The notes below the pieces were generated by a model. It worked only from the letters and a program-made list of their open reading frames with translations, ran no database searches and was not told the DNA's origin. From the NCBI GenBank assembly GCA_964652705.1, contig CAZZAV010000002.1, forward strand, positions 47,306 through 111,305: a stretch of 64,000 nt of DNA, written 5' to 3'. Position numbers and translations under genes: made by a program. This DNA is from an uncultured Neisseria sp. (lineage in GTDB: Bacteria; Pseudomonadota; Gammaproteobacteria; Burkholderiales; UBA11063). Of this stretch, positions 3 through 3,444 are shown piece by piece; position 1 is the first letter of the stretch, and each line of letters begins with the position of its first letter.

Positions 3-401
3 AGTAATGTTTCAATGAAAGACATTGTTAATCTAAAATCGGCAGATACAAGCTTAGTTTTTAATGATGATTCTTTTTTACCAAATCAAAGTGAGAGCCT
101 TTACTATATAGGAATCTGGGGAGTGGCTAATGAAAATAATGTTGATATAAGTGGAAATTTGTTTCCTCTCAGACCTGTTGATGTTAATAAACACTCAATC
201 CAATGGTTATTCTCAATGCCTAATAGGGTTAAAGAGCTTGAGTATTCTTATGCTATATTAAAAGAAAACATTAATTCAAAAGATTTATATATATCTGAAT
301 TAGAGGCGGCTAATCTTGTGTTAAAAGAAAATATTGAGATTAAAAATAAATATATTGAAGAGTTAGAGAATGCTTTAACTTTATGTCGAACTAAAAATTA
401 G
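3..401 (+). CDS. 5'-truncated polysaccharide-locus protein with C-terminal coiled coil
   Basis: The frame is open from the window edge (AGT AAT GTT TCA, then ATG at 15), so the true start is probably upstream. It ends in a heptad-rich tail, LKENINSKDLYISELEAANLVLKENIEIKNKYIEELEN. Confidence 0.6.
   Translation, partial: SNVSMKDIVNLKSADTSLVFNDDSFLPNQSESLYYIGIWGVANENNVDISGNLFPLRPVDVNKHSIQWLFSMPNRVKELEYSYAILKENINSKDLYISELEAANLVLKENIEIKNKYIEELENALTLCRTKN
258..383 (+). repeat. Imperfect 63-bp (21-codon) tandem repeat, 2 copies
   Basis: Units start ttaaaagaaaacatt (258) and ttaaaagaaaatatt (321) and encode LKENINSKDLYISELEAANLV / LKENIEIKNKYIEELENALTL. Confidence 0.75.
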
Positions 402-425: not shown

Positions 426-1466
426 ATGAGTAAAGAAAATACCATTTTAGAAAAACTATCCCATGTACCATATTATTTAGCCAAAAATTTGTGTCTGGGT
501 AAGTCTATTTTGGATGCCGCTTGTGGGGATGGTGAGACAAGTAATTTATTGCTATCATTTGGTGCGGACAAAGTCACTGGTGTGGATTTAAGTGTCGAGC
601 TTATTAAAAAAGCACAAGATAATAATTTTGATCAAAAATTACAATTTCATGTCGCAAATGTTGAACAACTAGAAAATTTTTTTGAAAATGAGAAATTTGA
701 CGTAATTATTTCAAATCAAACAATTGAGCATGTTGTTGACGTTGACAAATTTATTGCTTCATTAAAGTATTTGATAAAAGAGGATGGAACTATCATTATT
801 TCTTGTCCTAATGAATCAGATTTGACCGAATCGTTATCTTTTGATAATCACCATACTAAGTTTTCATACGAGTCATTTGTTCATAAATTATCAGTAATTC
901 TAGATATGCCTTATGTGATAATTGGCTCTTATCCTATATCTGGCTTAATTAGCCAAAATATTTCAGGTGAAGTTAAACAAATCAGCCGCGCTGCTACCAT
1001 TATTCAAAATTCTTATGATAGCTTTAATCAAACAAATGCTAGGTTGTTTACTGCTGTTTTTTCGCGTAGTATAAATTTTGAACCCTTTATTGACTTGGAT
1101 ATCCATAGCCAAACATCTTGGAGTAGTTTAGTTAAATATGACTATCTGAACGAATTAAAAATCAACCGAGAGATCTTTGAATTAAAGCAACGGTCACTAA
1201 TCTCTGAAGCATTAAGGATTGAATTGGAGTTTTCCAATGATGTAATATGGCGGCTTAATAATGAATGTGACGTCCTTAAAAGTGATCTTGAATCATTGAA
1301 ATATAAATGCTTATCTTTAAAGTATGAATGTGACGTCCTTAAAAGTGATCTTGAATCATTGAAATATAAATGCTTATCTTTAAAGTATTGTATCAAGCAA
1401 GTAATCAAGCTATCTATTAAAAAGATCTTGCCGATCAAAATAATTAATTTCATGAAAAAGTCTTAA
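426..1466 (+). CDS. Class I SAM-dependent methyltransferase with C-terminal coiled coil and basic amphipathic tail (WbdD-like architecture)
   Basis: SAM motif ILDAACGDG, plus VTGVDLS and FDVIISNQTIEHV. The C-terminus is a heptad repeat followed by VIKLSIKKILPIKIINFMKKS. Confidence 0.8.
   Translation: MSKENTILEKLSHVPYYLAKNLCLGKSILDAACGDGETSNLLLSFGADKVTGVDLSVELIKKAQDNNFDQKLQFHVANVEQLENFFENEKFDVIISNQTIEHVVDVDKFIASLKYLIKEDGTIIISCPNESDLTESLSFDNHHTKFSYESFVHKLSVILDMPYVIIGSYPISGLISQNISGEVKQISRAATIIQNSYDSFNQTNARLFTAVFSRSINFEPFIDLDIHSQTSWSSLVKYDYLNELKINREIFELKQRSLISEALRIELEFSNDVIWRLNNECDVLKSDLESLKYKCLSLKYECDVLKSDLESLKYKCLSLKYCIKQVIKLSIKKILPIKIINFMKKS
1261..1388 (+). repeat. Exact 63-bp tandem duplication inside the methyltransferase coiled coil
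   Basis: 1261-1323 is identical to 1324-1386 (plus 2 nt). It encodes ECDVLKSDLESLKYKCLSLKY twice. Confidence 0.97.
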
Positions 1467-1467
1467 G

Positions 1468-3444
1468 ATGAAAGATATTCAACTTTTAAGCTTGTTAAAC
1501 AGAATTCCGCTAGGTCAGCGTGGTGTAGGCGTTTTAGGAGAAAATCTTACCATCTCCACCCTTTCATTAGAGAGGCCAAGTCTTACATTAAAGTTATTGA
1601 GTTCTATTGAAATACATATTAGCGGTTTTAGAGGAAAGATATTAATTGTTGACAATGGGTCAACAAAAGAGACAATTGACATCTTAGAAGAGTATATTAA
1701 AAAAAGCACTCTAAGTATTCGCTTGGTAAAGGCTAAAACAAATCTTGGGGTAGCTGGAGGCAGAAACTATTCTGCTCAATTTGTCGAAACTGATTGGGTC
1801 ATGTTTTTAGATAATGATATTTATATTGAGAATGATTTTTTATCAATACTGCATAATGAAATAGATGTTTTAGGAACTCATTTTATTTCATTGCCCTTGA
1901 AAAATCCTGATGGTACATTTTTTGCTCAGGGTGGAAAAATATTTATTACCAATATTGATGCTAAACAGATTCACATTGGTGGAGGTAATGCAGATTTAGA
2001 GTTAAATCATCCTGAATTATCTTCTTTTTTATTTGGTGGTGCGTCTGTTTTAAATGTACATTCTTTCAAAAAAGTTGGTATGTTCAATCAGGGTATGTTT
2101 ATAGGTTTTGAGGATACAGAATTTTCAATACGACTATGGCAGTTTGGATATAAAGTTGCGACGAGCACAGTTAAATGTTTTATTCATGATCATCCAATTG
2201 CAACAGCAGATGAAGATGTTAATTATGAAAAAAAAAGATTTTCAACAAATCATATTCTTCGGTCAGCAAAAGTTGGAGAATCTAAACACTTTTTTTCTTT
2301 TTTATCACCACATGATATGGAGTGGCTAAACTCTAAACTAGCTAATTATGATGATAATCAGATTGATGGGGCTAAAAATATTCCACATGCGAAAGAAATT
2401 AGTTGTAATAAATTAAAAATAGGTATTGTTCTGGATGTTGTGGACTGGGCATTTGCAAATATTATATTTAATGTTGTTAATTTAAAACAAAGTAAATTTG
2501 AATTTATTGTTGTGCCAGCAAATGATTTTATGTCTTTTGATGGTAATTTAGCTAGAATTATGATGTCTATTGAATCATGCTCAATTGTGCATTTTATGTG
2601 GCGAGCGCATCTTTTTAACTTAGAGGGGATTGTCAAAGATTTTTGCAATTCGAAAAAAATAAGTTATATAGATTTTGAGCTTCGATTTATTAAGTGCAAA
2701 CTTTTTTCAGCTTGTGTTTATGATCATTCGTTAGATCCGAGTGGTGATAAATTTATTTATGATTCATTTGTTAATCTTGTTAAAACTAATTATTATGTTT
2801 CCAGTAATGTGCTTCGCCATAACTATGAACAGATAGATGGTTTACCATCCCCAAGAGCTGTTTGTCCAGATGGTGTTGATCTAAAGCTTTTTAAACCATG
2901 TAATTTATCAAGATTTAATTTACCACAGTTGAATGATCGTGTCATTAAAATTGGCTGGACAGGAAATAGTAAATGGGGAGAAAATGACCATAAAGGTCTT
3001 CATACTATTATTAAGCCTGCAATTGAAAGACTACAATTGGATGGATATTTAGTAAAGCTTGAGATAGCAGATCGAAATATTGTTAAACGTGAACAATATG
3101 ATATGCCTGAGTTTTATAATTCAATTGATATTTATGCTTGTGCTTCGTTAAATGAGGGAACCCCGAATACGGTTCTAGAGTCAATGGCTTGCGGGATTAT
3201 GGTTGTAACCACAGACGTAGGAATAGTACGAGATGCATTAGGACCTAAGCAGCAGCAATATATAGCGGATAGAACAGTTGATGATTTCTATATTAAACTA
3301 AAAACATTATTAGATAATAAAAATCAGTGGTCGGAGTTAGGTAGAGAAAATTTGGAATATATAAAATCATGGGACTGGCCATTAAAAGCACAGCTAATTA
3401 TAGATTATTTTAGTGAATTAGCTCTTTCATTGCAAAAAGGATAA
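1468..3444 (+). CDS. Bifunctional glycosyltransferase (GT2 N-terminal + GT4 C-terminal)
   Basis: GT-A motifs IVDNGS, NLGVAGGRN, FLDND and GFEDTEFS. GT-B motif SLNEGTPNTVLESMACG. Confidence 0.85.
   Translation: MKDIQLLSLLNRIPLGQRGVGVLGENLTISTLSLERPSLTLKLLSSIEIHISGFRGKILIVDNGSTKETIDILEEYIKKSTLSIRLVKAKTNLGVAGGRNYSAQFVETDWVMFLDNDIYIENDFLSILHNEIDVLGTHFISLPLKNPDGTFFAQGGKIFITNIDAKQIHIGGGNADLELNHPELSSFLFGGASVLNVHSFKKVGMFNQGMFIGFEDTEFSIRLWQFGYKVATSTVKCFIHDHPIATADEDVNYEKKRFSTNHILRSAKVGESKHFFSFLSPHDMEWLNSKLANYDDNQIDGAKNIPHAKEISCNKLKIGIVLDVVDWAFANIIFNVVNLKQSKFEFIVVPANDFMSFDGNLARIMMSIESCSIVHFMWRAHLFNLEGIVKDFCNSKKISYIDFELRFIKCKLFSACVYDHSLDPSGDKFIYDSFVNLVKTNYYVSSNVLRHNYEQIDGLPSPRAVCPDGVDLKLFKPCNLSRFNLPQLNDRVIKIGWTGNSKWGENDHKGLHTIIKPAIERLQLDGYLVKLEIADRNIVKREQYDMPEFYNSIDIYACASLNEGTPNTVLESMACGIMVVTTDVGIVRDALGPKQQQYIADRTVDDFYIKLKTLLDNKNQWSELGRENLEYIKSWDWPLKAQLIIDYFSELALSLQKG

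What the first reader, a model, noticed from the sequence alone, without database searches (positions are those of the whole stretch)
426..1466. Methyltransferase with a recently duplicated 3-heptad coiled-coil unit: candidate tunable glycan chain-length ruler
Seen: an exact, in-frame 63-bp duplication (1261-1388) lies in a heptad tail that ends in a basic amphipathic helix. Known: E. coli O9a WbdD caps O-polysaccharide by phosphorylation/methylation, and the length of its coiled coil sets chain length. Inference: copy-number change by slippage or recombination could give heritable, stepwise O-antigen length variation that keeps heptad register. This protein has no kinase domain, so capping would be by methylation alone.
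Basis: partly seen in the sequence, partly recalled or inferred. Interest (0 to 1): 0.72.

Follow-up and report, generated by a model that had tools for sequence, protein, structure and literature searches.

The report
Glycan-capping methyltransferase with duplicated stalk
This gene encodes a methyl-adding enzyme on a helical stalk, placed beside a polysaccharide export pump like the known "molecular ruler" enzymes that cap cell-surface sugar chains, and its stalk was recently lengthened by an exact three-heptad duplication; close relatives carry stalks of 3, 5, 6 and 8 heptads.

Summary
Window 1261-1388 is an exact 63-bp tandem duplication, the only strong tandem repeat in 64 kb. It is in frame and adds 21 residues (three heptads) to a predicted continuous helix (residues 240-334) in a 346-aa class I SAM methyltransferase. 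The protein ends in a 25-residue tail with net charge +7.

A GT2+GT4 dual glycosyltransferase follows one base after the stop codon. This is the gene order and architecture of methyl-only WbdD in E. coli O8 / Klebsiella O5, so capping by methylation alone is not new. The catalytic domain is not a WbdD orthologue (25% identity over the SAM core).

The five known alleles of this gene differ only by indels of 7-codon multiples in the stalk (3, 5, 6, 6 and 8 heptads). Two alleles that are otherwise identical differ by exactly two heptads. In the wider family, 12 of 18 internal stalk repeats have periods that are multiples of seven.

No chain-length effect is shown. Verdict: a new member of a known kind with an informative natural allelic series.

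The parts
3..401 (+). 3' part of methyltransferase 1 (MT1). The whole gene is G000 C2:46714-47706 (L001 17409-18401), 330 aa from MIERIP.
   Evidence: MT1 has a class I SAM methyltransferase domain (Pfam Methyltransf_31/23/11). It is 39% identical to MT2 over 164 residues. It has a heptad-rich C-terminal tail without a basic end, and the tail's last ~26 residues are identical in three lineages. The MT1 start overlaps the wzt stop. MT1-like and MT2-like domains are fused in this order in P0010 (612 aa).
426..1466 (+). Methyltransferase 2 (MT2, P0001, 346 aa). This is the gene of the finding and the proposed membrane-tethered chain terminator.
   Evidence: Translation; Pfam class I methyltransferase on residues 25-141; AF2 model with pLDDT 89.4. 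dN/dS against orthologues is about 0.2, so the gene is under purifying selection. An AGGTG motif lies 7 nt before the ATG.
426..1070 (+). Catalytic Rossmann-fold methyltransferase domain (residues 1 to about 215).
   Evidence: The SAM-binding motifs LDAACGDG and VTGVDLS are present. G36 and D54 are invariant, and D30, C33, G34 and D92 nearly invariant, in the 110-sequence family alignment. The best structural matches are generic class I methyltransferases such as XrdM, BamL and ToxA.
1143..1427 (+). Predicted continuous alpha-helical coiled-coil stalk (residues 240-334, about 14 nm).
   Evidence: AF2 helix H240-334 has pLDDT 93-98 over residues 250-320. One heptad register is continuous over 236-321.
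1261..1388 (+). Exact 63-bp tandem duplication (2 copies plus 2 nt). It encodes (ECDVLKS DLESLKY KCLSLKY) twice.
   Evidence: There are zero differences between the copies, although the gene is 8-9% diverged from its nearest orthologues. A 2-nt AT microhomology sits at the unit borders.
1389..1463 (+). Basic, hydrophobic C-terminal tail (residues 322-346, net +7, Pro336). Proposed membrane-association and partner-recruitment end.
   Evidence: The tail is nearly invariant among orthologues. 114 of 140 family relatives have a basic last 25 residues.
1468..3444 (+). Dual-domain glycosyltransferase (GT2 at the N-terminus, GT4 at the C-terminus, 658 aa). Candidate polymerase.
   Evidence: Pfam Glycos_transf_2 on residues 57-139 and Glycos_transf_1 on 530-623. 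Its start codon lies 1 nt after the MT2 stop. It always follows MT2 in related loci.

Best explanation
MT2 (426-1466) is most likely the membrane-tethered, chain-terminating methyltransferase of an ABC-transporter-dependent O-polysaccharide pathway in an uncultured low-GC freshwater betaproteobacterium. It is built like the methyl-only WbdD of E. coli O8 / Klebsiella O5.

Proposed mechanism, inferred by analogy. The basic C-terminal tail holds the protein at the inner membrane near the GT2+GT4 polymerase encoded next to it. The coiled-coil stalk of about 95 residues holds the catalytic domain about 14 nm away. A growing undecaprenyl-linked chain is O-methylated at its non-reducing end once it reaches that distance. 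The cap stops elongation and is read by the C-terminal domain of Wzt, which licenses export. The paralogous coiled-coil methyltransferase MT1, encoded directly upstream and fused to an MT2-like domain in another organism, probably works in the same complex and adds a second methyl group or a partly redundant one.

The 63-bp duplication is a recent replication-slippage or unequal-recombination event. It lengthened the stalk by three heptads, about 3.1 nm, without disturbing the register. Stalk length is evolutionarily labile in this orthologue group and in the wider family, and it changes in heptad units.

Shown here: the anatomy, the genomic context, the allelic series, and purifying selection. 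Inferred: terminal methylation, membrane binding, the oligomeric state, and any effect on chain length.
For: Context. The order wzm ... wzt(423 aa)-MT1-MT2-GT2/GT4 is tightly packed or overlapping. The core wzt-MT1-MT2-dual GT is conserved in related contigs from at least six samples. E. coli IAI1 (O8) has the same order: wzm-wzt-methyltransferase(425 aa)-WbdA. The Wzt ATPase domain matches the Aquifex O-antigen transporter Wzt at E=3.5e-70. Its C-terminal domain hits Pfam Wzt_C in 4 of 4 orthologues.

Architecture. N-terminal methyltransferase, a 95-residue helix and a basic tail. Of 140 relatives of 700 aa or fewer, 103 share a coil plus a basic tail, with heptad-like stretches of 29-258 residues.

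Allelic series. The stalk segment between WRLNN and the tail has 3 heptads (P0003), 5 (P0002), 6 (window), 6 (P0004) and 8 (P0159). The indels are 21, 42 or 63 bp, some copies are exact, and there is no other indel except one residue in P0004. L187 and L008 are identical over 5.3 kb except for the 42-bp stalk indel and a 10-bp repeat unit.

Recency. There are no differences in 63 nt, although the gene is 7.5-9% diverged from its nearest orthologues. P=0.004 if the copies were as old as that split.

Selection. dN/dS is about 0.2.

Family pattern. Internal repeat periods are multiples of 7 in 12 of 18 unrelated family members (binomial p=6e-7).

MT1-MT2 link. They are fused in P0010.

Literature. 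Methyl-only capping and the coiled-coil ruler: PMC11231755, PMC5082667, PMC3482155.
Against: There is no biochemical or structural evidence for the glycan, its terminus or its length. The methyltransferase domain is only 25% identical to WbdD(O8) over the SAM-binding core. WbdD ranks below many generic methyltransferases in the profile search and is absent from the top 50 structural matches, so the assignment rests on architecture and context rather than orthology.

The Wzt_C match of the window's own Wzt is just under Pfam's cut-off (29.9 against 30.4 bits). In P. aeruginosa CPA, two WbdD(O8)-like methyltransferases in an ABC-transporter locus do not behave as WbdD-type length regulators (PMC3560663).

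Heptad-multiple indels are the only length changes a coiled coil tolerates easily, so the pattern may reflect structural constraint and not selection on length. The copy number in short-read assemblies could be under-counted, and reads could not be inspected.
Confidence: 0.6

Rival explanations
1. MT2 is a glycan methyltransferase whose stalk serves only for oligomerisation, tethering or scaffolding. It may methylate internal residues or act redundantly with MT1. Under this view stalk length does not set chain length, and the heptad-unit indels are nearly neutral changes that survive only because other indels would break the coiled coil.
For: In the P. aeruginosa CPA locus, the two WbdD(O8)-like methyltransferases are partly redundant and do not act as WbdD-type length regulators (PMC3560663). 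The catalytic domain is not specifically WbdD-like. Each allele is fixed and identical across the samples that carry it, as expected for drift. MT1 also has a coil but no membrane tail.
Against: The architecture of coil plus basic tail plus adjacent polymerase plus Wzt with a C-terminal domain is what the literature calls a characteristic marker of the terminator strategy (PMC11231755). All five alleles differ in stalk length while the rest of the tail is nearly invariant. That is a lot of change for a neutral trait in a gene with dN/dS of 0.2.
Confidence: 0.25
2. The repeated heptads are binding sites and not a spacer. Each ECxxLKS-type unit, with a cysteine at the core 'a' position, would dock a partner such as MT1, the polymerase or a metal ion. 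Copy number would then change stoichiometry or regulation instead of distance.
For: Cys occupies 'a' positions in every repeated unit in all alleles (ECDVLKS, KCLSLKY, ECEVLKS, ECEKYRS), which is unusual for a plain structural coil. The MT1 tail is invariant across lineages, as an interaction motif would be.
Against: There is no partner or metal evidence. The repeated units differ in sequence between lineages (ECEVLKS against ECEKYRS), while the presumed partners are conserved. Other family members repeat unrelated heptad sequences, which fits length better than a specific motif.
Confidence: 0.1
3. The duplication is an assembly artefact and the real gene has one copy.
For: Reads could not be inspected. 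The genome is a 99-contig draft. Tandem repeats are error-prone in short-read assemblies.
Against: This is an inference. The junction sequence (end of the unit joined to the start of the unit) exists only if at least two copies are present in reads, and de Bruijn assemblers tend to under-count tandem copies, not invent junctions. The duplication is in frame and preserves the heptad register. Analogous exact duplications occur in independent assemblies of relatives. The exact 346-aa product is recorded on 3 contigs in the protein collection.
Confidence: 0.04

Closest known systems
WbdD of E. coli O8 / Klebsiella pneumoniae O5 (methyltransferase-only chain terminator)
   Same: Both have an N-terminal class I SAM methyltransferase, then a coiled coil, then a basic C-terminal region. 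Neither has a kinase domain. Both are encoded directly after wzm-wzt and before the multi-domain polymerase (E. coli IAI1 locus). Capping is by methyl alone (PMC3482155, PMC11231755).
   Different: Identity is only 25% over about 120 residues of the SAM core. WbdD(O8) is 425 aa and has an NSRSWRITQPLRW-type motif and a longer C-terminal region that MT2 lacks. The present locus has two paralogous coiled-coil methyltransferases instead of one. Its sugars and polymerase (GT2+GT4, 658 aa) are unrelated to the polymannose WbdA.
WbdD of E. coli O9a / K. pneumoniae O3 (kinase-methyltransferase with a coiled-coil molecular ruler)
   Same: [quoted passage not shown] The system also has a Wzt with a cap-reading C-terminal domain.
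   Different: WbdD(O9a) is 708 aa, has a eukaryotic-like kinase domain, a coil of about 20 nm, and caps with methyl-phosphate. MT2 has no kinase and a predicted stalk of about 14 nm. The family profile matches the WbdD methyltransferase domain only at E=1.8e-9, below many generic methyltransferases.
K. pneumoniae O7 ORF6 and O12 WbbB (terminator, coiled coil and polymerase GT modules in one polypeptide)
   Same: The terminator sits at the distal end of a coiled coil in an ABC-transporter-dependent pathway (PMC11231755).
   Different: In those systems the GT modules are fused to the coil protein. Here terminator and polymerase are separate proteins, as in the WbdD/WbdA system.
PA5457 / PA5459 of the Pseudomonas aeruginosa common polysaccharide antigen locus
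   Same: There are two WbdD(O8)-like methyltransferases in one ABC-transporter-dependent O-polysaccharide locus. They are partly redundant, and the double mutant makes no polymer (PMC3560663).
   Different: The Pseudomonas proteins lack the membrane-interaction and GT-interaction domains and do not act as WbdD-type length regulators. MT1 and MT2 here both carry coiled coils, and MT2 has a basic tail.

Membership tests
WbdD-type chain terminator of ABC-transporter-dependent glycan assembly (functional class) | Encoded in a locus with wzm/wzt, next to the polymerising glycosyltransferase(s) | tested here: met
   wzm (ABC2_membrane) and wzt (ABC_tran) lie 5 kb and 0.6 kb upstream, and a GT2+GT4 protein starts 1 nt after the MT2 stop. 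The order is conserved in related contigs from at least six samples.
WbdD-type chain terminator of ABC-transporter-dependent glycan assembly (functional class) | Partner Wzt carries a C-terminal carbohydrate-binding domain that reads the cap | tested here: inconclusive
   The 423-aa Wzt has an extension of about 185 residues. It matches Pfam Wzt_C at E=6e-7 with 29.9 bits, just under the 30.4-bit cut-off. All 4 orthologues match, best at 5e-8. A profile search against the PDB found no Wzt-C structure.
WbdD-type chain terminator of ABC-transporter-dependent glycan assembly (functional class) | N-terminal terminating catalytic domain (methyltransferase, with or without kinase) | tested here: met
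   Class I SAM methyltransferase with intact SAM-binding motifs. There is no kinase, as in WbdD(O8).
WbdD-type chain terminator of ABC-transporter-dependent glycan assembly (functional class) | Extended coiled coil between the catalytic domain and the membrane-proximal end | tested here: met
   This is prediction only. There is a continuous helix at 240-334 with high confidence and one unbroken heptad register with 75% a/d occupancy. The oligomeric state is unknown.
WbdD-type chain terminator of ABC-transporter-dependent glycan assembly (functional class) | C-terminal membrane-associating amphipathic helix and polymerase recruitment site | not testable with these tools
   The tail at 322-346 is basic (+7, no acidic residue), hydrophobic and conserved. 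Membrane binding and polymerase recruitment need experiments.
WbdD-type chain terminator of ABC-transporter-dependent glycan assembly (functional class) | Modifies the non-reducing terminal sugar, and coil length sets modal chain length | not testable with these tools
   No glycan data exist. The only indirect support is the allelic series in heptad units.
WbdD protein family (sequence orthology to E. coli O8/O9a WbdD) | Methyltransferase domain specifically related to WbdD rather than to class I methyltransferases in general | tested here: not met
   Identity to WbdD(O8) is 25% over the SAM core, pairwise E=3e-4. WbdD(O9a) is absent at E<=0.01 with the single sequence. With the family profile it reaches only E=1.8e-9, behind more than 40 generic methyltransferases. 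It is not in the top 50 Foldseek matches.
Class I SAM-dependent methyltransferases (Pfam Methyltransf_11/25/31) | Rossmann-like fold with the glycine-rich SAM-binding motif, and scores above the Pfam cut-offs | tested here: met
   Methyltransf_31 scores 72.2 bits (cut-off 27) and Methyltransf_11 68.9 bits (cut-off 21.2). Structural matches have probability 1.00.

The most novel reading that the evidence does not exclude
Stalk length of glycan chain terminators may be a naturally adjustable trait. Slippage or unequal recombination in register-preserving repeats of 21 nt or its multiples would generate allelic series (here 3, 5, 6 and 8 heptads, about 1 nm per heptad) within freshwater bacterial populations. 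These would yield different modal O-polysaccharide lengths on which phages, grazers or other surface-directed pressures select. On this reading the window's 63-bp duplication is one such natural ruler mutation. The same mode of change would operate across a family of thousands of methyltransferase-coil-basic-tail proteins.
Probability: 0.3. Interest if true: 0.7.

Novelty: new member of a known kind. Interest (0 to 1): 0.45.

Why it matters
The coiled-coil ruler that sets O-antigen length was established with engineered insertions and deletions in E. coli O9a WbdD and Klebsiella WbbB. In the searches I ran, I found no paper in the held library that describes natural copy-number variation of the ruler.

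This locus offers a compact natural series: 3, 5, 6, 6 and 8 heptads, including two alleles identical except for two heptads. The system is small and methyl-only, with a 346-aa terminator and a separate 658-aa polymerase. It could be moved into a laboratory E. coli strain to ask whether nature uses ruler length as an adjustable parameter.

The locus also shows a two-methyltransferase terminator module that is fused into one protein elsewhere. Otherwise the biology is what the known model predicts for an ABC-transporter-dependent O-polysaccharide locus.

Tried and rejected
- Exact look-up of P0001 in public contigs returned nothing, because records of the window's own genome are withheld.
- The first AlphaFold2 run with only 4 sequences was unusable (pLDDT 45). 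It was replaced by a run with 110 sequences.
- The metagenome scan gave only one true orthologue, which was already known, plus distant methyltransferases. The genome-contig scan gave only distant hits.
- A search of 60 related genomes, 36 of them species representatives of the same genus, found no orthologue of MT2. The one moderate hit, in G007, is MT1-like.
- A profile of the Wzt C-terminal domain against the PDB gave only spurious leucine-rich-repeat matches to its low-complexity linker.
- Promoter and terminator scans around the operon were no better than shuffled sequence for promoters and gave only weak terminator-like sites.
- The antisense ORF at 1142-1453 (103 aa) was considered and rejected. 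It lies wholly inside MT2, which is conserved and under purifying selection.
- Hagelueken 2015 (PMC4650267) is not held, so its results are cited through PMC5082667 and PMC11231755.
Full report
**1. The observation**

Window 1261-1388 holds two exact, head-to-tail copies of a 63-nt unit, and the match runs 2 nt further. TRF reports period 63, 2.0 copies, 100% matches and score 256. The only other TRF row in the window is a 29-nt array scoring 51.

The repeat lies inside ORF 426-1466 (346 aa, P0001). It is in frame and encodes ECDVLKSDLESLKYKCLSLKY twice, which is 21 residues or three heptads. An AGGTG motif lies 7 nt before the ATG.

One heptad register places L/I/C at 75% of a/d positions across residues 236-321 and runs unbroken through both copies. 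An AlphaFold2 model made with a 110-sequence alignment has mean pLDDT 89.4. It shows a Rossmann-type domain (residues 1 to about 215), one continuous helix at 240-334 (pLDDT 93-98 over 250-320), a break at Pro336 and a short helix at 337-344.

The last 25 residues carry 7 Lys and no acidic residue.

**2. What surrounds the gene**

The window starts inside the operon, so I read the contig upstream (window = C2:47306-111305 of a 2.46-Mb, 99-contig draft with about 34-36% G+C). Reading downstream towards the window, the genes are:
- UDP-galactopyranose mutase and an epimerase/dehydratase.
- An AAA-ATPase/PD-(D/E)XK protein.
- wzm (ABC2_membrane, 264 aa).
- A HEPN/nucleotidyltransferase pair.
- A 496-aa arylsulfotransferase-like lipoprotein.
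- wzt (423 aa, ABC_tran plus a C-terminal extension).
- A 330-aa class I methyltransferase, MT1, whose start overlaps the wzt stop. The window contains only its last 132 codons (3-401).
- MT2, the gene of the finding.

One nucleotide after the MT2 stop begins a 658-aa GT2+GT4 dual glycosyltransferase. It is followed by a 449-aa protein with no family match, GtrA, a GT2 with a below-cut-off match to the AglJ model, and more glycosyltransferases.

The Wzt ATPase domain is closest to the Aquifex aeolicus O-antigen transporter Wzt (E=3.5e-70). Its C-terminal 184 residues hit Pfam Wzt_C at 29.9 bits, against a cut-off of 30.4. All four orthologues tested hit the same model.

PheS from the window is 90-91% identical to PheS of uncultured Burkholderiales/Neisseriales MAGs.

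**3. Relatives and the allelic series**

A search of 5.8 billion proteins found only three close relatives. A cluster look-up added a fifth allele. Every locus has wzt-MT1-MT2-dual GT in the same order.

The segment between the conserved WRLNN and the conserved basic tail reads as follows:

| Allele | Length | Source | Stalk segment | Heptads |
|---|---|---|---|---|
| P0003 | 325 aa | three samples | ECEVLKS DIESLKY KCSSLKY | 3 |
| P0002 | 339 aa | four contigs | ECEVLKS ECEVLKS ECDVLKI DIESLKY KCLSLKY (first two copies identical in DNA) | 5 |
| Window (P0001) | 346 aa | this genome | (ECDVLKS DLESLKY KCLSLKY) x2 | 6 |
| P0004 | 347 aa | L008 | ECEKYRI ECEKYRS x2 ECEYFKH LNNVYQS QMQSLKF | 6 |
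| P0159 | 361 aa | L187 | as P0004, with ECEKYRS x4 | 8 |

- L187 and L008 are identical over 5.3 kb. The only differences are this 42-bp indel and one unit of a 10-bp repeat at the 3' end of the GT gene.
- There are at least four separate length changes, and all are multiples of 7 codons. Apart from one residue in P0004, they are the only indels in the protein.
- If in-frame indels were otherwise unconstrained, each would be a heptad multiple with probability 1/7.
- The gene is under purifying selection (dN/dS about 0.2, against 0.09-0.26 for wzt and the GT).
- It is 7.5-9% diverged in DNA from its nearest orthologues (dS 0.2-0.3), yet the window's two copies are identical. The chance of that would be about 0.004 if the copies were as old as that divergence. 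The duplication is therefore recent, or has been kept uniform by gene conversion.
- Each allele is identical in every sample that carries it. Nothing here suggests high-frequency switching.

**4. The wider family**

An exhaustive HMMER search of 1.84 billion representatives gave 17,287 hits at E<=0.001.
- Of the best 140 proteins of 700 aa or fewer, 122 have at least 28 heptad-like residues after the catalytic domain, 114 have a basic last 25 residues, and 103 have both. The heptad-like stretch ranges from 29 to 258 residues. That scoring is a simple one of my own, not a published predictor.
- Twenty-two proteins contain a clear internal repeat in the stalk. Excluding the orthologues, 12 of 18 have a period that is a multiple of seven (7, 14, 28, 35 or 70). 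The binomial p is 6e-7 against an expectation of 1/7. One protein has at least seven nearly exact 14-residue units.
- P0010 (612 aa) fuses an MT1-like half, coil included (48% identity), to an MT2-like half (35% identity). This argues that MT1 and MT2 act together.
- In another species of the same genus, a wzt gene is followed by a coiled-coil methyltransferase with a 28-residue internal repeat and then a GT.

**5. Comparison with known systems**

According to PMC11231755:
- WbdD caps Klebsiella O5 (= E. coli O8) with methyl and O3 (= O9a) with methyl-phosphate.
- The length of the coil helps set the size distribution.
- A coiled-coil protein is a characteristic marker of this strategy.

PMC5082667 summarises that insertions or truncations in the WbdD coil raise or lower modal length. 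PMC3482155 notes that a methyltransferase-only homologue suffices in O8.

I retrieved the O8 locus of E. coli IAI1. Its order is wzm-wzt-methyltransferase(425 aa)-WbdA, the same as here. The sequence relationship is weak, however:
- MT2 and WbdD(O8) share 25% identity over the SAM-binding core only.
- WbdD(O9a) is not found with the single sequence.
- It ranks behind more than 40 generic methyltransferases with the family profile.
- It is not among the top 50 structural matches.

MT2 therefore works like a WbdD(O8) by architecture and context, but it is not a member of the WbdD sequence family. A two-methyltransferase precedent exists in the P. aeruginosa CPA locus. Those proteins lack the interaction domains and do not behave as length regulators (PMC3560663), which is the main reason to keep the 'scaffold only' rival alive.

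**6. Mechanism proposed**

Shown: the domains, the continuous helical stalk, the basic tail, the operon context, a Wzt with an extra domain, the allelic series, and purifying selection.

Inferred by analogy: the tail binds the inner membrane and the polymerase. The stalk of about 95 residues (about 14 nm at 0.148 nm per residue) holds the methyltransferase away from the membrane. Chains long enough to reach it are methylated at the non-reducing end. The cap stops growth and licenses export through Wzm/Wzt. MT1 joins through its coil and adds a second or redundant methyl group.

The 63-bp duplication adds about 3.1 nm. It has 2-nt AT microhomology at its borders, consistent with slippage or illegitimate recombination.

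**7. Artefact question**

Reads could not be examined. My inference is that a de Bruijn assembler cannot produce the unit-to-unit junction unless reads contain it. The risk is therefore under-counting of copies, not a false duplication. The same caveat applies to L008 (3x coverage) against L187.

The exact 346-aa product is recorded on 3 contigs in the protein collection.

**8. Verdict**

This is an ordinary system in kind: a WbdD(O8)-like methyl-capping terminator module in an ABC-transporter-dependent O-polysaccharide locus. Two features go modestly beyond the textbook case. One is a paired or fused two-methyltransferase head. The other is a clear natural series of ruler lengths that change in heptad units, which is mirrored across the family.

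Earlier notes of this scan report similar stalk duplications in other genomes. I did not test those, and they are not independent evidence. In the searches I ran, I found no paper in the held library on natural ruler-length variation.

Noticed in passing
L001 13791-14525 (G000 C2:43096-43830, about 3.5-4.2 kb upstream of the window); compare L002 2891-7673: A HEPN (NTase_sub_bind) and minimal nucleotidyltransferase pair sits inside the wzm-wzt interval, and it is also present in the diverged L008 locus. In the L002 lineage the same interval holds Abi_2 and AAA_15/21 genes instead. The gap between wzm and wzt seems to be a landing site for toxin-antitoxin and defence modules.
   Followed up: partly
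L001 14631-16121 (G000 C2:43936-45426): A 496-aa arylsulfotransferase-like (ASST) protein lies between wzm and wzt. It has a lipoprotein signal peptide (MKSIVLLTAIALSASLISC) and is conserved in L008. It may modify the glycan in the periplasm, for example by sulfation, or it may be unrelated to the pathway.
   Followed up: partly
window 1264-1385; L008 5153-6196; L187 2668-3753: Cysteine occupies the core 'a' position in the repeated heptads of every allele (ECDVLKS/KCLSLKY, ECEVLKS, ECEKYRS with Tyr at 'd'). In L187 this makes a ladder of up to six Cys layers. That is unusual for a structural coiled coil and could mean metal binding or redox-dependent cross-linking.
   Followed up: no
L187 5727-5776 compared with L008 (at the 3' end of the GT gene): A 10-bp unit ATAGATTGTT is present 5 times in L187 and 4 times in L008. 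This and the 42-bp stalk indel are the only differences over 5.3 kb. By contrast, the first ~650 bp of wzt differ at 86 positions, which marks a recombination boundary inside wzt.
   Followed up: partly
window 3-401 (MT1 tail) and L002, L006: The last ~26 residues of MT1 (LKENIEIKNKYIEELENALTLCRTKN) are identical in three lineages whose genes differ by dS 0.27-0.39. The segment just before them is replaced by an unrelated stretch 11 residues longer in L002 and L008. The invariant end looks like a protein-interaction motif.
   Followed up: partly
window 426-3444 compared with L002: Between the window and L002, wzt and the GT are 96.7-96.8% identical in protein, while MT1 and MT2 are only 81.7% and 87.9% identical. 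The methyltransferase pair therefore evolves faster than its flanks, or was exchanged by recombination.
   Followed up: partly
P0053 (476 aa, family relative, residues 343-445): A 14-residue unit ERETILESNAALKL is repeated at least seven times, almost exactly (87/89 identities at offset 14), in the stalk of a distant family member. This is a much larger recent expansion of the same kind.
   Followed up: no
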